Source: a virus | Reading direction: 5' to 3' (one strand) | Length of the DNA: 64,000 nt | Virus record (IMG/VR): IMGVR_UViG_3300020125_000051 | Coordinates: 17,008-81,007 of that record | Part shown: piece after piece, positions 28,776 through 61,567 of the stretch | Layout of the letters: each line of letters opens with the position of its first letter | Numbering within the stretch: position 1 is the stretch's first letter | Position numbers and translations under genes: made by a program | The notes under the pieces: generated by a model | Databases searched by the model: none | Told to the model about the DNA's origin: nothing | What the model saw: the letters and a program-made list of their open reading frames with translations, nothing else

Positions 28776-29089
28776 TTTCCTATTAACCAGCTAGGACGTT
28801 GTTCTTCATTGCTTGCTGCTCTAGGGTTATCTGGATTTAAACCCCATTCGTAACTCCAGTTGCAATCTTCATTTTCACAATATAGGTCACCAGCAGAACC
28901 ACAGTTCATGCAAGATACCCAATGTCCATCGCCTCGCTGATAAGTGTGACAAGAGTTACCAACCCAAATTGGTGAAGTTCCACATTTTGGACATGGTGCA
29001 TCTATATATGGATCATATTTTCCTTCAACAAAAATCATTTGTGTTCGTTCTGGTTCTTGTTTTGTAGTCCTCTTTAAAAAATTCAACAT
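28763..29089 (-). CDS. Zn-ribbon hypothetical protein
   Basis: CPKC, CMNC and C....C motifs. Confidence 0.55.
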   Translation of the reverse strand: MLNFLKRTTKQEPERTQMIFVEGKYDPYIDAPCPKCGTSPIWVGNSCHTYQRGDGHWVSCMNCGSAGDLYCENEDCNWSYEWGLNPDNPRAASNEEQRPSWLIGKWPW

Positions 29090-31419
29090 TACAGATCACT
29101 CCATCGCTTTCCAATCGAAACATCTACTGCGAATGGTACGTAATCAGTAAATGTAGTAGCTGCTTTAACCATTGATTCACGAGCGATCTCAATTACTTCA
29201 TCTGCATTTTCTTCTTTACATTCAAAGATCATCGCGTCGTGAATAGTTAATCTAGTAATTGCTCGACCACGAAGCTTTGGCTGTAAATCAATGAGTGAAG
29301 TCAGGCAGATATCACTTGCAATTGATTGTGGTAGAAAGCTCAATCCTTCATTGAGAACGTCATGTCTGTTTTGATCAGTGATCAGCCAGAACGAACGTTT
29401 ACGTCCAAATGGCGTGAGAAGATCATCACCATTAAGAATTTGGTTTTTAACGGCTGTTTGCCACTGGATAACCTTAGAAATTAGCGTGTTAAACTCACGC
29501 ATTAGAATCTTGGTTTCCGTGAGAGAAATGCTAGAGCCTTGTTGTTGTAGCTCCTGGCAAATAGCTTCTACACCGCGACCATAAGCATTGCCATAGAAGA
29601 TGGACTTCATGCTTACGCGATTTTCTTTACTCCATTTACCTACACCGTAGATATCATTGCAAAGTTCATTGAAGATATCACGATCTGGGTCGCGGAAGAT
29701 ATTAGCTAAATACTCGTCTTGCGCCAAAGTCGTAATAACACGACCTTCTGCTTGTTTGTAGTCAAGCTGAATAAGCACATTCGCTTCATCTTCCACGGTG
29801 AATTGATGCTTGATCCGCTTATCCCTGACAATATTTTGCATGTTCGGGTTCTTAGAAGCAAGACGGCCTGACGTCGTACCATGGAGTGTGTACGTGGTGA
29901 ATACCTTATCACCGTATATTCTTTTTTGGAAGCCTTTGACATACGTACCATTAAGCTTCGTTCTACGGCGATGTAAGAGAAGTTGACTAATGAATGTTCT
30001 AACGGTTCCTGAGATTGCATCTTTTTGAAGTAGTCTTTCTAGGAGATCCTTATTTGTAGAAGGTAGAATCATACCTTGTTCGGCAAACCATCTAGTGATT
30101 TGCAACGGTGAACGCGGGTTTAGTGCCCTACCTGTGGTGTTTGCTATCTCACCTTCGAATTCAAATAGTTCTTTTTCTAAGATTGCTTGCAGTTCTATAC
30201 TGTATTTTTCATCAAATGACATTCCAGCACGTTCTAAGAACATCAACGCATTGGATGCCTTGATTAAGAAATCGTGTTCGAAACGTTCTCTTTCGGTGAA
30301 CCGCTCACTAAACAAACGCCACAGATCGTAGGTGACCGTGACATCATAAGCGTTATATTTGTATAGAACACTCCTCGGGATGTCAGCATAGTTTCCACCT
30401 CTTGGAATATATTTGTGAATCTCCGACTCCCAGTCCGGAGTGCCCAACAACTCAATCCCAAGCTTTTTAAGTCCATGCTGTCCGGGTCGTTCGTCAAGAC
30501 AATAAGACATGAGCATTGTGTCGGCATAGGCTTCTAACTCACCGAAGTGGGGGTACAATCCTGCCAGGTCAAATTTAGCATTGTGCGCAATAATAGGACG
30601 GGATCGTAAATATCTTGCGAACAAAGGCGAAACTTTTGCATCCGTAAGTCCACGTCCAGAGAATACGACTGCTTTTCCGGGTCTATAGCAGATACCCACG
30701 CATAGCAAACCATATTGATCTGGGTGGACGTAAGTGTTGTCTTTTTCAATGCCACACTCAATATCGATAACGATAGGTCCCTCAACTGTTTCCAGTCTTT
30801 GGATTGCTTCTCTAGTCGCATCTGGAGAGTCAAACGAAACGAATTGAGGCTCACTCCAATTTGCATATGTTGTTCCTCGTAATTTGGCCGTATCTGATAC
30901 AAATGATGGGAATGCGTCTGGCGCACGCAAGCAATATGCTGGATGCCAAGTTGCAACTACAGACACACGTTCGTCTTCTATATATGGTTTTGGCGCACCG
31001 ATACGCAAAGATGATATTTTCTTCTTTGGATTAATTAAAGCGCTGGCTGCGGTACCTCCGACCGCTAAAATCTTTTCTACGCCGCTGTGAGCTAGCTCGG
31101 CATCGAGCCTAGGCTTGCACGCGGCGACCGCAGCTTTCGGTGGATCATCGTTATTCTCTGGTCTACACAAACAAATGTTGGTAACCATGACATCTTGTCG
31201 ATGATACCCATTGTGTTGAAGTACTTGATCTAGTAATTTACCAGATGGACCAGTAAATGGAATACCTCGAACAGCCTCATATGCGCCCGGCGCTTCTCCT
31301 ATGATGGCGAGCTTAGCTCTTGGCTGTGGGTTTTGGGTAGGCACGAATGGTGCGGTTTGAAAAGGACATTCCCAACATTTAGCATATGGCGCCTTGGAAT
31401 GGCGCATCTCATCAGGCAT
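29089..31419 (-). CDS. polA: DNA polymerase I family A with N-terminal uracil-DNA glycosylase domain
   Basis: UDG family 4 motifs (C..C, GEAPG, GIPF.GPSG, HPAY.LR); 3'-5' exonuclease DIE/HNAKFD/YNAYD; polymerase motifs DYKQAE, R...K...YG..YG and HD. Confidence 0.95.
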   Translation of the reverse strand: MPDEMRHSKAPYAKCWECPFQTAPFVPTQNPQPRAKLAIIGEAPGAYEAVRGIPFTGPSGKLLDQVLQHNGYHRQDVMVTNICLCRPENNDDPPKAAVAACKPRLDAELAHSGVEKILAVGGTAASALINPKKKISSLRIGAPKPYIEDERVSVVATWHPAYCLRAPDAFPSFVSDTAKLRGTTYANWSEPQFVSFDSPDATREAIQRLETVEGPIVIDIECGIEKDNTYVHPDQYGLLCVGICYRPGKAVVFSGRGLTDAKVSPLFARYLRSRPIIAHNAKFDLAGLYPHFGELEAYADTMLMSYCLDERPGQHGLKKLGIELLGTPDWESEIHKYIPRGGNYADIPRSVLYKYNAYDVTVTYDLWRLFSERFTERERFEHDFLIKASNALMFLERAGMSFDEKYSIELQAILEKELFEFEGEIANTTGRALNPRSPLQITRWFAEQGMILPSTNKDLLERLLQKDAISGTVRTFISQLLLHRRRTKLNGTYVKGFQKRIYGDKVFTTYTLHGTTSGRLASKNPNMQNIVRDKRIKHQFTVEDEANVLIQLDYKQAEGRVITTLAQDEYLANIFRDPDRDIFNELCNDIYGVGKWSKENRVSMKSIFYGNAYGRGVEAICQELQQQGSSISLTETKILMREFNTLISKVIQWQTAVKNQILNGDDLLTPFGRKRSFWLITDQNRHDVLNEGLSFLPQSIASDICLTSLIDLQPKLRGRAITRLTIHDAMIFECKEENADEVIEIARESMVKAATTFTDYVPFAVDVSIGKRWSDL

Positions 31420-44486: not shown

Positions 44487-44975
44487 TTAAAACCATGTGT
44501 AGTAGTCCCAGCGCTTTTCATACATAATAAGCGATGGTACGTAATTAGCTTCAATTTGATGCTTCCACATTAGCATTCGGCCAGTTCGACCGTTACCATC
44601 AACAAATGGATGTATATGCTCAAACCTTACATGTTCATGAATTGGATCTAAGGTGAACCAATTCAACATGTGTGTCAGCCAATCATCCATTCTTTCTTGA
44701 ATTTCACGCCAATGTGGACACATTCTGCCACCAACAGTAACATTGTTGACACGGTATGATCCTGCGCCACCAGTTCTAGCCGGTAGTAGATTCTTCATGA
44801 TAAGACCATGAAGATGGAGAATCATTTCTCCGGTAAATGGCATTGATTGCTTAATAAGCCATTGCCATGCGACTAAGCTTTGTTCTATTTCTCTTGGATC
44901 TGTAACACTCTCGATTAAATTCGATTGCGTGATATGTTCACGCATATCGAACTCACTCATCATCGTCGTCGTCAT
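44487..44975 (-). CDS. Fic-domain protein
   Basis: Intact HPFVDGNGRTGR motif. Confidence 0.9.
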   Translation of the reverse strand: MTTTMMSEFDMREHITQSNLIESVTDPREIEQSLVAWQWLIKQSMPFTGEMILHLHGLIMKNLLPARTGGAGSYRVNNVTVGGRMCPHWREIQERMDDWLTHMLNWFTLDPIHEHVRFEHIHPFVDGNGRTGRMLMWKHQIEANYVPSLIMYEKRWDYYTWF

Positions 44976-53230: not shown

Positions 53231-54820
53231 TTAGATTCTACCTGCGCTAAACGCAGAAACCAATTTAGGCAAGTTTGAATCTGCGCCCGCTACGTCTAGC
53301 ATACCACTATCTGTGGGATTTGCAATAGAAAATCGCGTTGGAGTACATGCAACAACAATCAACTTTGCGTCATGACCTATAAACCTGCGATAATCCTTCA
53401 ATGCAACATGAGGATGTACATTACCAGCCCATGTTTCACTATCAGTCATTACCACAAAGGTATCAACGTCGATGCCACGTTCCTTGGCATATACCATTGG
53501 CAGTGAACAATCTGTACTACCAAAATTGCGATCCTTAGTTCTTTGCATTACTTCAGCTAGTGACATATTAGGTGCTATTCCCAAATCAACAAAATTCTGG
53601 GAGAATCCCATGATTTGGTAGAATGGCTCAGTTCTGGCAATCGTCATTGACATAGCTGCGCAAACTTCGGCAGCAGTTAAGTCAATGCCAGCCATCGACT
53701 GAGACATAGAACCAGAAACATCAAGAGCTATCATGGTACGCTTGTTAGCTGGTTCTACGTACTTAAAGGCACGATAGAAACCATCATCAAGTGCATTTAC
53801 GATAACAGGATTAGTTGCCCAATTCTTTTCATAGGTGTGACTCCATGCGTACTTACGATCACGCTGACCACGCTGATGCACAGTAGATGCTAGCAAATAC
53901 TGGAAAGGATGCAAGCGCGTACGCTGAATCATTTCCTCATCTACAAGCTTATCTGCATATGCACGAGCAAAGTGCATGTCCTCGAAAGCACCAATACGAG
54001 CAAGTCTAGTGATATTACGTACTAGAGCCTGACCGTTAAGCTGTCCATTACCGAAAAGCATCTTCCATACATCAGGAACCTTTAGGAATTGAGTAGGAAT
54101 GGCTTCCCAGGGAAGATTTGGATAACGCTCTAGTGCTGAAAGCACATGTCCTATCATGGTAGATGCTTGCATCCGCTTGAATCCAGCAATTATCAGCGGA
54201 TCTACATTAACTTCATTATCAAAGCCATGCACGAAATCGCCAATTGCCTTATTCAATCCCACAGGATGTGAAAGCATGAGCAAACCCTTGTGGGTCCAGC
54301 CGTTCCGTTGACGGTACTTTACCACCTGATACGCAAGGCTGTCAACATCCTTGCTAATGTACCAATCGGCAATCGCGCGCCGCTTTGCTCGTCCCCAACC
54401 ACCTAGAAGTTTGATATATTCAGCAAACTCGAATAGATGAGTTGACGTGCGACACACCTTAGCTAAGTCCTGCGAAGATTTTGCCTTGCCAAAGGTAAAC
54501 AGCGCGGCCAAACAAAAAATTGCAGGACTATTGCGGAAAGCACGGCCAGACTGTGAGATTTCAACTACAGTATCACGAACTAACTGCTCATCACGCTCAA
54601 TTAGTTCGCGTAGAAAGTTGATGTTATCCTTAGTAAGCTTCTGCTCGTCAACATAGTATGTTCCACCTTCGGTACCCAAAATAAGAAAACGCTCTAGGCG
54701 AGTCTTATCTGTTACCTCAAACGTAAAACCACCAGCATTGTTAGCAACCTGCCGAGGATCTTCTTGCTCTGACTGTGGTATTGGTGTTCCTAGTGTTCTT
54801 GAAAATACGTTGTTTGCCAT
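53231..54820 (-). CDS. rsr: Ro60/Rsr RNA-binding protein (TROVE + vWA)
   Basis: QV.NNAGGF.F, RL.RFLILG.EGGTYY, GGWGR..RRAI..WY, KYRQR.GW.H..L...SHP, AL.RN, DVSGSM MIDAS, TDCSLPM and TDSETW.G..HP motifs. Confidence 0.96.
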   Translation of the reverse strand: MANNVFSRTLGTPIPQSEQEDPRQVANNAGGFTFEVTDKTRLERFLILGTEGGTYYVDEQKLTKDNINFLRELIERDEQLVRDTVVEISQSGRAFRNSPAIFCLAALFTFGKAKSSQDLAKVCRTSTHLFEFAEYIKLLGGWGRAKRRAIADWYISKDVDSLAYQVVKYRQRNGWTHKGLLMLSHPVGLNKAIGDFVHGFDNEVNVDPLIIAGFKRMQASTMIGHVLSALERYPNLPWEAIPTQFLKVPDVWKMLFGNGQLNGQALVRNITRLARIGAFEDMHFARAYADKLVDEEMIQRTRLHPFQYLLASTVHQRGQRDRKYAWSHTYEKNWATNPVIVNALDDGFYRAFKYVEPANKRTMIALDVSGSMSQSMAGIDLTAAEVCAAMSMTIARTEPFYQIMGFSQNFVDLGIAPNMSLAEVMQRTKDRNFGSTDCSLPMVYAKERGIDVDTFVVMTDSETWAGNVHPHVALKDYRRFIGHDAKLIVVACTPTRFSIANPTDSGMLDVAGADSNLPKLVSAFSAGRI

Positions 54821-56825: not shown

Positions 56826-57590
56826 TTATACAAACCTCTTAGCGGCATAGAATGAATACAAGTTGTTAATGATTACACCTTGCTTGTATCCGGCAGCTTC
56901 GACAATCTTACCATTACCAATATAGACAAACACATGACCAATGAACGGCCAAACTATATCTCCAGGTTGTAGATTGTTGCGAGACACCCGAACACCTTGG
57001 TTAGAATAAAGGATCTGTGCATCTTGATGAGGCACATTAATTCCAACCTGAGCTAGTGACATCATCACAAGACCAGAACAATCAAATGCATATGGTCCAG
57101 CAGCAGCCCAAGAATAACGCTTGCCAACCTGAGCTAATGCGTAGTTGACAATTCTTTGCGCTCTTGAAGTGTTAGCTGATGCTACTGTGGTGGTTGCCTT
57201 AATTACTGGCTTAGTTACTGGTGCCGTGGCAGGTACCGAACTAACCACAGGTGCAGTAGGTACAAAAATTTGCTGACCTACACCAAGCTGATTGCAGTTG
57301 GCAAGTTTATTATACTGACAAATACCTGGCCAATACCCAGGATTCGAATAGACAGCGTTGGAAATACCAAAAAGACTTCCATAAGGAGAAGGATACTTTT
57401 GAGTAGTAATCCAAGTGCCAATTGGCTTCGCTACGGCCACCGATTCAACAGCTTTTGCTGTTTCTGTTGCTGCCACTACCTTCTGGTCGACTATTGTCGT
57501 CGCTCCCGCAGGAGTTGCAATGGCAAAAACGCTAATACTTATGAGTAGGCTGCCTAATGAAGCTTTTATGGCAGACTTGGATCTAGACAT
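56826..57590 (-). CDS. Secreted LysM-like + NlpC/P60 peptidoglycan endopeptidase
   Basis: Signal peptide; LysM-like SLFGIS...W..I...N....L.VGQ.I.VP; Y.W...GP..FDCSGL, LQPGD and HV..Y.G.G motifs. Confidence 0.9.
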   Translation of the reverse strand: MSRSKSAIKASLGSLLISISVFAIATPAGATTIVDQKVVAATETAKAVESVAVAKPIGTWITTQKYPSPYGSLFGISNAVYSNPGYWPGICQYNKLANCNQLGVGQQIFVPTAPVVSSVPATAPVTKPVIKATTTVASANTSRAQRIVNYALAQVGKRYSWAAAGPYAFDCSGLVMMSLAQVGINVPHQDAQILYSNQGVRVSRNNLQPGDIVWPFIGHVFVYIGNGKIVEAAGYKQGVIINNLYSFYAAKRFV

Positions 57591-59015: not shown

Positions 59016-59642
59016 CTAATTAAGTAACGCTGTATCAGTCACAGTGTAAGAACCTCGGGAGATCCATACATAACCTGTGGTGTTGTTAAATTCAACCTGG
59101 AACATTGTTGACTTATTTACGTCAGTGCCAAATCCATTGATTGTGCCAGCGAAAGCCATGATTGGGTTATTCCACTGATCGCAAAGCTGCGCTACTGCCG
59201 CAGTACCAGCAAAGTGGTTCTTGACTGAGCGCCAAGCAAAGTTTACTAATGGAACACCACGATCATTGTTTTCAATTCGAATCTTATAGAATTGCTGCGA
59301 ATTGGCAAACAATGCTGGTTGAGCATTATCAGAAACGTAAACTGTCGTAAATCCTACGGTTCTTATGATACCCTTCCCACAGGAGACTTGAATAACCGAA
59401 GAATCTTCGATTTTCTTGCCATCTGAGTTATATCGATCAAACATATGATCAGTATCAAAGCCTAAACTTTCGCAATGAGCCTGATACACAAGTTGGCCAT
59501 CAGTACCATAGTTATAGATGGTACCTGGTGAATTTCCCAATGCTCGCATAGCTGCCGCAATTGAATTGCTGACACTTGAGCAGCCAGATAAAGTAACTAT
59601 TGCTAGCACTAGACCAGCTAGTACTACAAAACTTTTTTTCAT
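59016..59642 (-). CDS. Lipoprotein
   Basis: MKK, hydrophobic core, LSGC lipobox. Confidence 0.8.
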   Translation of the reverse strand: MKKSFVVLAGLVLAIVTLSGCSSVSNSIAAAMRALGNSPGTIYNYGTDGQLVYQAHCESLGFDTDHMFDRYNSDGKKIEDSSVIQVSCGKGIIRTVGFTTVYVSDNAQPALFANSQQFYKIRIENNDRGVPLVNFAWRSVKNHFAGTAAVAQLCDQWNNPIMAFAGTINGFGTDVNKSTMFQVEFNNTTGYVWISRGSYTVTDTALLN

Positions 59643-59643
59643 T

Positions 59644-60057
59644 TTATCCTTTATTTGTTTTATTTGTCAAATTTTGTGTTGCTCTATACTGACGATCGTA
59701 TAACCGTTTATACTCTTTACATAAATCACATCTACAATGATGATAAGTATACCCAGAACCAGTACCGTGCGGTACTGACCTATTATAGTTTTCATCATTG
59801 TTTTTTAATGCATGACAAGTTTTACATAAAACTTGGCATTTAGCTAATTCATTTATTCGCTTTGGATTTGTTTTGGCTAATGACCATACGCTCGCCACGG
59901 CGAATCCTTTGGAAGATTTATCTTTGTGATCCACTTCCAAATTTTCTTTAGAACCACACCGTTTGCATGGACCGTTTTCGTTGATCCACTCTTCTCTTCT
60001 AGCCTTAATCCAAGCCAATTGGTATTCACGTTTGTCTTCTTTTGAAGCAAAGGGCAT
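59644..60057 (-). CDS. HNH endonuclease with C-terminal CRC Zn motif
   Basis: C..CG...LEVDH, CQVLC..CH..K and HGT.SGY....CRC..C; start taken at MPFAS. Confidence 0.8.
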   Translation of the reverse strand: MPFASKEDKREYQLAWIKARREEWINENGPCKRCGSKENLEVDHKDKSSKGFAVASVWSLAKTNPKRINELAKCQVLCKTCHALKNNDENYNRSVPHGTGSGYTYHHCRCDLCKEYKRLYDRQYRATQNLTNKTNKG

Positions 60058-60080
60058 AATCACCACCCTATTATAATAAG

Positions 60081-60163
60081 CGGAAGATAAAGGATTCGAA
60101 CCTTTGGAGGTTTCCCCCACTGTCTTAGCAGGACAGCCCGATCGTCCACTCTGGCAATCTTCC
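60081..60163 (-). tRNA. tRNA-Ser(GCT)
   Basis: Loop CTGCTAA; long variable arm. Confidence 0.9.
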
Positions 60164-60911: not shown

Positions 60912-61020
60912 TAGAGCAGTGGATATCTGTGATGCACTCACCACTGCGTTGTGCAATGACATACGGCCGTATGCCAACCCGCTAACCATACTTGTTGAGC
61001 TTTCGGTTAGTTCGGTCCAG

Positions 61021-61093
61021 TACCCTCAGAAGGAATTGAACCTTCTACTTCTACGTTCGTAGCGTAGCGCTCTGTCCGATGAGCTATGAGGGT
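61021..61093 (-). tRNA. tRNA-Arg(ACG)
   Basis: Loop CTACGAA. Confidence 0.9.
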
Positions 61094-61098
61094 TAAAA

Positions 61099-61232
61099 GT
61101 TTGGATATAAGTTGAAATCGGTGTTTTTATATGCGCTCTGCCACTGAGCTAATATACGGAATTTCACCGTACGATACAGGAGTCGAACCTGTGACCTCAT
61201 ATTCCTGATAACCAATTTCTGTCGACCCAAAC
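61099..61232 (-). ncRNA. yrlA: YrlA-type Y RNA (Y6): tRNA-like domain opened at the anticodon loop
   Basis: Ro-type stem, then T arm ACAGG-TTCGACT-CCTGT, loop-closed acceptor, and D arm TAGCTCAGTGGCAGAGC. Confidence 0.88.
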
Positions 61233-61238
61233 CAAAGA

Positions 61239-61403
61239 CTAATTAACAAATGATTGGAACGCAGATATTACGTCGTTGTCGTCACTTACAGCTTCAACAA
61301 TACGTTTAGCTGCCTTTGCCAATTCTGAATCTGGCGCTGTTTCAATGAGATCCTTTAAATCTATTTGTGAAACATCAACCAGTGGTGTAAAGACTTGATC
61401 CAT
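61239..61403 (-). CDS. FxSxx-COOH (FxsA)-like peptide, 54 aa
   Basis: Translated by hand: MDQVFTPLVDVSQIDLKDLIETAPDSELAKAAKRIVEAVSDDNDVISAFQSFVN; SD GAGG. Confidence 0.72.
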   Translation of the reverse strand: MDQVFTPLVDVSQIDLKDLIETAPDSELAKAAKRIVEAVSDDNDVISAFQSFVN

Positions 61404-61567
61404 TTTTACCTCATTATAGAAATGTGTCTGGCGCTGTCCCCAATATCACAGCCTCTAGCAACCTACCCCACCAGCTACATTATTTTGATTACGTGTCTCG
61501 AACCAACACCACACGCTTGTCAGACCCATACTGGTGCAGGATGTCTGATTTCCACTAAAAAGCTAAT

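What the first reader, a model, noticed from the sequence alone, without database searches (positions are those of the whole stretch)
61239..61403. Orphan FxSxx-COOH (FxsA)-like peptide encoded by the phage inside the Y-RNA array
This 54-aa ORF is below the track cutoff and has a good SD. Its pattern PLVDVS.IDL.DL.....S.LA.A..RIV.......VISAFQSFVN matches my recollection of actinobacterial FxSxx-COOH precursors (L.DL...L..L leader, helical middle, terminal AFQS), with one extra C-terminal residue. Established: FxsA is a cyclophane RiPP precursor modified by the radical SAM enzyme FxsB, and the loci also encode TIR-like FxsC and TPR/NTPase FxsT, domain types typical of conflict systems. No fxsB is in this window. 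Inference: a phage decoy or mimic that hijacks or jams a host Fxs system, which would imply that system is antiviral.
Basis: partly seen in the sequence, partly recalled or inferred. Interest (0 to 1): 0.82.

Follow-up and report, generated by a model that had tools for sequence, protein, structure and literature searches.

The report
Phage-borne orphan FxsA peptide gene
A soil virus carries, among its tRNA genes and with no modifying enzyme of its own, a diverged copy of the small peptide gene that actinobacteria keep beside a ring-forming enzyme in a predicted suicide-type immune locus, so the virus probably feeds a look-alike peptide into that host system.

Summary
The 54-aa ORF (window 61239-61403, minus strand, GAGG five bases before the ATG) is real and is a true, diverged homologue of FxsA/FxSxx-COOH precursors. 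It scores 19.6 bits on TIGR04268 (cut-off 28). Authentic precursors lying next to FxsB score no better (21.4 bits, 25.8 bits, no hit). Its nearest cellular relatives (36-46% identity) sit in canonical FxsT-FxsA-FxsB-hydroxylase-FxsT loci on 60-72% GC soil contigs. The carrier is a complete 81-kb phage with terminal repeats, 42% GC, 29 tRNAs and Ro60. It has no radical SAM gene, no hydroxylase and no FxsT, so the gene is an orphan. Its base composition matches the phage (GC3 27%), not a recent host capture. The closest complete relatives lack it, so it is an accessory gene. Limited scans found orphan copies in two further viral lineages. This scan has already reported the same kind of gene on other DNA (17 notes, at least 14 genomes). 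The host is probably an actinobacterium, but this is inferred. The decoy or mimic idea is plausible but untested. No experiment yet shows that Fxs loci are antiviral. I found no paper describing phage-borne FxsA.

The parts
61239..61403 (-). 54-aa FxsA-like (FxSxx-COOH type) precursor ORF. It has an extended N-terminal PLVDVS motif, two predicted helices (residues 16-22 and 27-40) and a flexible C-terminal core ISAFQSFVN containing the F49-x-S51 cyclophane motif.
61409..61412 (-). Shine-Dalgarno GAGG, five bases before the ATG
   Evidence: read directly from the sequence
61413..61440 (-). Promoter-like site GGGACA-16 nt-TATAAT ending 9 bases before the ATG. If used, the mRNA would be nearly leaderless. 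This is a consensus match only, and the region has no more such sites than its shuffles.
61112..61218 (-). Sub-threshold YrlA-like (Y RNA-like) element 21 bases downstream of the stop codon
   Evidence: 24.6 bits, gathering score 69
61020..61093 (-). tRNA-Arg(ACG), next gene downstream on the same strand
53231..54820 (-). Ro60 (TROVE + vWA) gene of the same minus-strand accessory block. It is context, not part of the peptide system.

Best explanation
The ORF is a working phage accessory gene that encodes a diverged FxsA-type RiPP precursor. An ancestor phage took it from an actinobacterial Fxs locus long ago, and it was kept without the maturase. Inferred mechanism: in an infected host that has an Fxs locus, the phage peptide is recognised through its conserved leader (PLVDVS, helix with R34). 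Host FxsB then takes it as a substrate, linking Phe49 to Ser51, or the peptide at least binds FxsB or the FxsT sensor. It would thus act as a look-alike of the host's own peptide and steer or blunt the linked TIR/ParA/STAND suicide module. Shown here: homology, orphan status, composition matched to the phage, recurrence in other phages. Inferred: translation, host identity, processing by host FxsB, and any effect on defence.
For: Homology:
- TIGR04268 hit, E 7.8e-4, full length.
- The collection lists PF27839.1 on this protein, and PF27839 is named 'FxSxx-COOH' in Pfam 38.1.
- An exhaustive phmmer search returns only FxsA-like peptides. All 8 of these hit TIGR04268.
- Relatives in L008, L022 and L005 lie in FxsT-peptide-FxsB-hydroxylase-FxsT loci. 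FxsB scores 465 and 454 bits against a cut-off of 370.
- An HMM of non-phage relatives scores the ORF 73.5 bits.
- Eight columns are invariant, including A48, F49 and S51. MscB, an FxsB-family enzyme, is reported to link Phe C4 to Ser C-beta (PMC11002830, citing Nguyen et al. 2020).

Orphan status: no FxsB, radical SAM, HExxH hydroxylase or FxsT in the complete 81-kb genome.

Long residence in the phage: ORF GC is 38% and GC3 is 27%, like other phage genes. The high-GC copy examined (L023) has GC3 0.88.

Recurrence:
- G001 (132.7 kb, terminal repeats, portal and tape-measure genes) has an orphan copy.
- G030/G031 also carry one without FxsB.
- A 60%-identical 55-aa relative, P0002, keeps all invariant residues.

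Host hints:
- Ro60 is 57% identical to Streptomyces phage proteins.
- Terminase and portal match Arthrobacter and Microbacterium phages best.

Docking model of an FxsB (L008) with the phage peptide gave weak support:
- Score 0.45, best of 3 controls 0.04.
- The mark was reached by 58 of 80 solved complexes and 2 of 110 mismatched pairs.
- At 0.60 or under it was reached by only 7 of those 80 and by both mismatches.
- The runs agree in at least 28% of contacts, and the partner's pLDDT is at least 51.
- The FxsB is a stand-in, not the host's enzyme.
Against: - The host is unknown, so nobody knows whether it has an Fxs locus.
- The phage has 42% GC against 60-72% for the Fxs contigs.
- One accessory lipoprotein (DUF5052) is commonest in Bacillota.
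- The gene is missing from the closest complete relatives G002 and G003, so it is dispensable.
- TIGR04268 is below its cut-off (19.6 against 28 bits). FxsB-adjacent precursors also fail it, so this counts for little.
- In the papers I could search, no experiment shows that Fxs loci defend against phages.
- The near-invariant DDPNG stretch before the core reads SDDND here, so processing could differ.
Confidence: 0.5

Rival explanations
1. Exploitation rather than inhibition. The phage supplies extra precursor so that host enzymes make more of the mature peptide. The phage then uses it as a signal between infected and neighbouring cells, or to drive a host developmental or dormancy response that favours the phage.
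For: - Both leader and core motifs are kept. That fits a substrate that is fully matured better than a mere binder.
- Published models propose the FxsAB peptide as a diffusible alarm signal (bioRxiv 10.64898/2026.10.19.760177; PMC7159879).
Against: - An alarm signal that warns neighbours would hurt a spreading phage.
- No export or receptor gene was seen next to the ORF.
Confidence: 0.15
2. Defence for the phage's own benefit. The peptide arms or primes the host Fxs system against competing phages (superinfection exclusion or lysogenic conversion).
For: - G001 carries a serine integrase and is probably temperate, with its FxsA-like gene about 5.5 kb from the integrase gene, among small accessory genes.
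- The window ORF lies in an accessory block with a lipoprotein, a Fic/DOC gene and HNH genes.
Against: - No integrase was seen among the G000 genes scanned.
- A host with an Fxs locus already has its own precursor.
Confidence: 0.12
3. Fxs-independent role. The unmodified small helical protein has taken on another job in the phage (for example binding a host or phage protein) and no longer depends on any maturase.
For: - The copy is the most diverged found (at most 44% identity to cellular copies).
- It has been fully recoded to phage composition.
- The predicted leader is a two-helix unit with pLDDT 85-89.
Against: - The exact residues that define the enzyme substrate (A48, F49, S51) and the leader motif remain invariant. 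This also holds in the 60%-identical relative P0002.
- That pattern is not expected if the maturase no longer mattered.
Confidence: 0.15
4. Not functional: a chance ORF, or a decaying scrap of captured host DNA.
For: - A 54-codon ORF is not rare by chance (about 5% per start).
- The closest relatives lack it.
- The three soil runs that covered the stretch showed no sequence variants, so selection could not be measured.
Against: - Full-length homology with intact start, stop and SD.
- Composition is matched to the phage while the family's invariant residues are retained. That needs long purifying selection.
Confidence: 0.05

Closest known systems
FxsA / FxSxx-COOH precursors with the FxsB (MscB-type) radical SAM/SPASM cyclophane maturase (NCBIfam TIGR04268, TIGR04269; Pfam PF27839; triceptides)
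   Same: - Size.
- N-terminal PL[IV]DVS leader motif.
- Central helix with a conserved Arg.
- C-terminal SAF-x-SF core containing the Phe-x-Ser motif that MscB cross-links.
   Different: - No maturase, hydroxylase, FxsT or FxsC anywhere in the genome.
- The carrier is a 42% GC phage.
- K replaces R, and the DDPNG stretch is lost.
- Below the TIGR04268 cut-off.
Fxs-linked TIR-ParA / VMAP ternary conflict systems (Kaur et al. 2020, PMC7159879; bioRxiv 10.64898/2026.10.19.760177)
   Same: The cellular relatives of the phage peptide lie in such loci, flanked by FxsT proteins. These papers predict that the peptide is a toxin, an antiviral molecule or an alarm signal.
   Different: Those are host loci with a predicted, untested immune role. 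The papers, as far as I searched them, do not mention phage-encoded precursors.
HXS antiphage system (rSAM-matured HxsA effector; PMC13128918)
   Same: A radical SAM/SPASM-type maturase and its small substrate protein act in phage defence. This is a demonstrated precedent for an enzyme-matured peptide or protein in immunity.
   Different: A different family (His-Xaa-Ser repeats, periplasmic effector, E. coli). No phage-borne copy of the substrate is reported there.
Phage-encoded mimics of a host system's own component, such as the pseudo-ToxI RNA of phage PhiTE or the T4 Dmd antitoxin substitute (from my own knowledge, not checked here)
   Same: The logic is the same: the phage carries only the small regulatory or substrate part of a host suicide system and none of its enzymes.
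   Different: Those mimic antitoxins. Here the mimicked part is a RiPP precursor that would need a host enzyme, and no effect has been shown.

Membership tests
FxsA / FxSxx-COOH precursor family (TIGR04268, PF27839) | Score at or above the curated TIGR04268 cut-off (28 bits) | tested here: not met
   The ORF scores 19.6 bits, E 7.8e-4, aligned to HMM positions 1-43 of 44. Precursors directly upstream of FxsB also fail: L008 21.4 bits, L005 25.8 bits, L022 no hit. The cut-off is therefore too strict for this subfamily.
FxsA / FxSxx-COOH precursor family (TIGR04268, PF27839) | Match to the Pfam model PF27839 (FxSxx-COOH) | tested here: met
   The protein collection lists PF27839.1 on this exact protein. 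The Atlas names PF27839 'FxSxx-COOH'. The score is not shown, and the model is absent from the local Pfam copy.
FxsA / FxSxx-COOH precursor family (TIGR04268, PF27839) | Small peptide ending in Phe-x-Ser-x-x at or near the C-terminus | tested here: met
   F49-Q50-S51-F52-V53-N54: three residues follow the Ser, not two. The same is true of the FxsB-adjacent L008 peptide. Other relatives have 1 to 8 extra residues.
FxsA / FxSxx-COOH precursor family (TIGR04268, PF27839) | Full-length homology to peptides that lie in Fxs loci | tested here: met
   36-46% identity to peptides in L005, L008, L009 and L022, which are flanked by FxsT, FxsB and the HExxH hydroxylase. The HMM of non-phage relatives scores 73.5 bits.
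Fxs system (gene cluster) | Adjacent FxsB-family radical SAM/SPASM maturase | tested here: not met
   No TIGR04269 match and no Radical_SAM match in the complete 81,007-bp genome. The ORF is a family member by sequence but is not part of an Fxs cluster.
Fxs system (gene cluster) | Linked aKG-HExxH hydroxylase and FxsT (FxsC not searched here) | tested here: not met
   No TIGR04267 match and no NF040586 match in the genome.
Triceptide (three-residue cyclophane RiPP) | Phe C4 to Ser C-beta cross-link installed by the maturase | not testable with these tools
   Chemistry is reported for MscB (PMC11002830). The only evidence here is a weak docking model.
Phage anti-defence protein | Shown inhibition of a defence system | not testable with these tools
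Neither the host nor the defence role of Fxs is established.

The most novel reading that the evidence does not exclude
The peptide is a dedicated counter-defence factor: a RiPP-precursor mimic that occupies host FxsB or the FxsT sensor and stops the Fxs-linked TIR/ParA suicide module from firing. That would be the first evidence that Fxs loci are antiviral, and the first anti-defence strategy based on a borrowed RiPP precursor. Orphan copies in several unrelated actinophage lineages would then mark a widespread arms race.
Probability: 0.25. Interest if true: 0.85.

Novelty: new variant of a known kind. Interest (0 to 1): 0.6.

Why it matters
Fxs loci are common in filamentous actinobacteria. 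Two comparative-genomics papers predict that they are suicide-type immune systems, but in the papers I could search nobody has tested this. Genes that phages copy from host systems and keep are among the best pointers to what those systems do. A stand-alone FxsA in phages gives a direct handle:
- Express the phage peptide with a known FxsB and look for the cross-link.
- Test whether it changes phage sensitivity of fxs+ strains.
It also shows that a RiPP precursor can travel and persist without its enzyme, which matters for genome mining that treats precursor and maturase as one unit.

Tried and rejected
I could not fetch the DNA or context of P0002-P0008, so no dN/dS was possible for the 60%-identical relative.
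- INPHARED phages: no match for the 3-kb region, for the peptide, or for a cellular FxsA, P0004. tblastn is weak for 54-aa queries at 40% identity.
- Peptide-pattern scans of viral contigs with the single peptide and with A2 found nothing. A1 was too variable to use.
- The genome-contig scan gave two chance matches, L002 and L003. They lie inside other reading frames and lack the C-terminal motif. I therefore had no actinobacterial genome handle and could not survey cellular genomes by taxon.
- PHROGs: no family for the peptide.
- PF27839 is not in the local Pfam copy and appears in no paper.
- No RNA holder was listed for the stretch.
- Read laying: run X10 laid nothing. X12, X14 and X16 gave identical sequence with no variants, so there was no polymorphism test.
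- Metagenome loci could not be searched by handle.
- The cultured phages Comrade, Karp and Wollypog have no FxsA-like ORF. The one Wollypog hit is a partial match inside an 834-aa frame.
- The weak partial hit in G022 (12.9 bits, HMM positions 5-22) was taken as chance.
- The upstream 167 nt fold no better than shuffles (z -0.32).
- No terminator-like site was found near the ORF.

Full report
**The observation**

The window is bases 17008-81007 of an 81,007-bp IMG/VR virus record. The record has direct terminal repeats and is rated 100% complete.

The flagged ORF lies at 61239-61403 on the minus strand and encodes 54 residues. The ATG is the first start codon in its frame, and GAGG lies five bases upstream.

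A promoter-like GGGACA-16-TATAAT site ends nine bases before the ATG. The region has no more such sites than its shuffles. All tRNA genes, the Ro60 gene and this ORF share the minus strand.

**Is it FxsA-like?**

The evidence says yes.

- NCBIfam TIGR04268 (FxSxx-COOH) is the best hit, at E 7.8e-4 and 19.6 bits, aligned over HMM positions 1-43 of 44. It falls below the 28-bit cut-off.
- An exhaustive phmmer search of 1.84 billion representatives found, apart from one partial (19-residue) match to a 498-aa repeat protein, only small peptides of 55-66 aa with the same ends: xAPL[IV]DVS at the start and SAFQSF at the finish. All eight hit TIGR04268, and one source names one of them 'FXSXX-COOH protein'.
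- The protein collection lists PF27839.1 on the phage protein. PF27839 is 'FxSxx-COOH' in Pfam 38.1.
- A metagenome scan gave 18 further homologous loci at 36-46% identity (some duplicating one locus), on contigs of 60-72% GC.
- On the long contigs L008 and L022 the homologue lies in the order FxsT, peptide, FxsB, aKG-HExxH hydroxylase, FxsT. FxsB scores 465 and 454 bits against a cut-off of 370. On L005 an FxsT gene precedes the peptide.
- Those authentic precursors score only 21.4 bits, 25.8 bits, or nothing on TIGR04268. The phage ORF's failure of the cut-off therefore says little.
- An HMM built from 21 non-phage homologues scores the ORF 73.5 bits. The next frame in the genome scores 5.5, and the best of 2000 shuffles scores 14. 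The training set had been chosen by likeness to the query, so this score is inflated.
- Invariant residues are P7, L8, D10, S12, R34, A48, F49 and S51.
- A review reports that MscB, an FxsB-family enzyme, links Phe C4 to Ser C-beta within Phe-x-Ser (PMC11002830).
- The AlphaFold model shows an extended N-terminus, helices at 16-22 and 27-40 (pLDDT 85-89), and a floppy C-terminal core. This is the usual leader-plus-core layout.

**Orphan status**

The complete genome has no match to any of these families:

- FxsB
- any Radical_SAM domain
- the HExxH hydroxylase
- FxsT

There is also no second FxsA-like frame.

**History of the gene**

- The ORF has 38% GC and a GC3 of 27%, like other genes of the phage (GC3 25-42%). 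The high-GC copy I examined (L023) has GC3 0.88. Lysines replace the arginines of cellular copies. This points to long residence in low-GC phages, not a recent capture.
- One 55-aa relative, P0002, is 60% identical and keeps all invariant residues. It lies on a 463-bp contig that I could not fetch.
- The closest complete relatives, G002 and G003, have terminases 81-83% identical but lack the ORF. The slot between the tRNA-Arg gene and the next conserved block is about as long in G003 but unrelated in sequence. The gene is therefore an accessory gene.

**Recurrence in other viruses**

My limited pattern scans found two more viral lineages with orphan copies.

- G001 is 132.7 kb with terminal repeats and 69% GC. 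It has portal, tape-measure, DnaB, RecT and serine integrase genes. It has an FxsA-like ORF but no FxsB and no radical SAM gene. Its peptide is 69-72% identical to the soil copies L012 and L014, and only 33% identical to the window's peptide. This looks like a separate capture.
- G030 and G031 have 60% GC, and G031 is 94% complete. They carry a 63-aa copy and no FxsB.

Earlier notes of this scan report the same kind of gene in at least 14 other genomes, often inside tRNA arrays. I treat those notes as leads only.

**Host**

The host is not shown. The hints are as follows.

- Ro60 is 57% identical over its full length to Ro-like proteins of Streptomyces phages of the genus Gilsonvirus. About 350 of the 356 phage records with a match are actinophages.
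- Terminase and portal match Arthrobacter, Microbacterium and Gordonia phages best, at 33-37%.
- The NlpC/P60 gene points to a Gram-positive host.
- Against this, the phage has 42% GC, and its DUF5052 lipoprotein is commonest in Bacillota.

I put an actinobacterial host at roughly two in three.

**Mechanism**

Two comparative-genomics papers place FxsAB peptide processing inside predicted suicide-type immune loci, built from a TIR effector, a ParA/STAND switch and TPR sensors. They propose that the peptide is a toxin, an antiviral molecule or an alarm signal (PMC7159879; bioRxiv 10.64898/2026.10.19.760177). Neither reports an experiment or a phage-borne copy.

A phage that keeps only the precursor, with the leader and the Phe-x-Ser core intact, most simply depends on the host enzyme. 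It would then act as a look-alike of the host peptide.

A docking model of the L008 FxsB with the phage peptide gave weak support:

- The score was 0.45, and the best of 3 controls was 0.04.
- The mark was reached by 58 of 80 solved complexes and 2 of 110 mismatched pairs.
- At 0.60 or under it was reached by only 7 of those 80 and by both mismatches.
- The runs agree in at least 28% of contacts, and the partner's pLDDT is at least 51.

Whether the outcome is inhibition, exploitation or exclusion of rival phages cannot be told from sequence.

**Verdict**

The decoy reading is reasonable but untested. I found no paper describing phage-encoded FxsA.

Noticed in passing
L023:9983-10147 (+), in G001 = IMGVR_UViG_3300048996_000163: A second, unrelated complete phage (132.7 kb, 69% GC, terminal repeats, serine integrase) carries an orphan FxsA-like ORF. 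It is 69-72% identical to the soil copies L012 and L014. The genome has no radical SAM gene.
   Followed up: yes
L108:332-523 and L109:1367-1558 (G030, G031): A third viral lineage (60% GC; G031 is 58.7 kb and 94% complete) encodes a 63-aa FxsA-like peptide ending ISAFGSYVGT. It has no FxsB.
   Followed up: partly
L028:7143-8747 (-), in G001: G001 also encodes a TROVE-domain (Ro60-like) protein, so two of the three phage lineages with an orphan FxsA carry a Ro-type gene (G030/G031 were not checked for one). This may only reflect how common Ro is in actinophages.
   Followed up: partly
window 53231-54820 (-): The Ro60 gene (TROVE + Ro60 vWA) is 57% identical to Ro-like proteins of Streptomyces Gilsonvirus phages. 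This is the best clue to the host group.
   Followed up: partly
window 61112-61218 (-): A YrlA-like RNA lies directly after the ORF. T-arm and D-arm parts align, but the score is 24.6 bits against a gathering score of 69, so the 'Y-RNA array' is not confirmed by Rfam.
   Followed up: partly
window 44487-44975 (-): A Fic/DOC family gene lies at the start of the tRNA array. It is a possible toxin or host-modifying enzyme in the same accessory block.
   Followed up: no
window 59016-59642 (-): A DUF5052 lipoprotein (signal peptide with an LSGC lipobox) lies inside the tRNA array. The family is commonest in Bacillota and in phages. It may be a superinfection-exclusion protein.
   Followed up: partly
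window 56826-57590 (-): An NlpC/P60 peptidase gene sits between tRNA genes. It could be the endolysin or a virion-associated lysin placed oddly in the accessory region.
   Followed up: partly
window 29089-31419 (-): A single 776-aa protein fuses a uracil-DNA glycosylase-superfamily domain, a 3'-5' exonuclease and family A DNA polymerase.
   Followed up: no
window 59644-60120 (-) against tRNA-Ser 60080-60163: The longest reading of the HNH endonuclease ORF overlaps the tRNA-Ser gene by about 40 bases, so its true start is probably further downstream.
   Followed up: no
L095 (G003:C1:38600-39300): In the close relative G003, the slot between the tRNA-Arg gene and the next conserved block is about as long (about 520 bp) but unrelated in sequence and holds no FxsA-like ORF. 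The slot appears to swap its content.
   Followed up: partly
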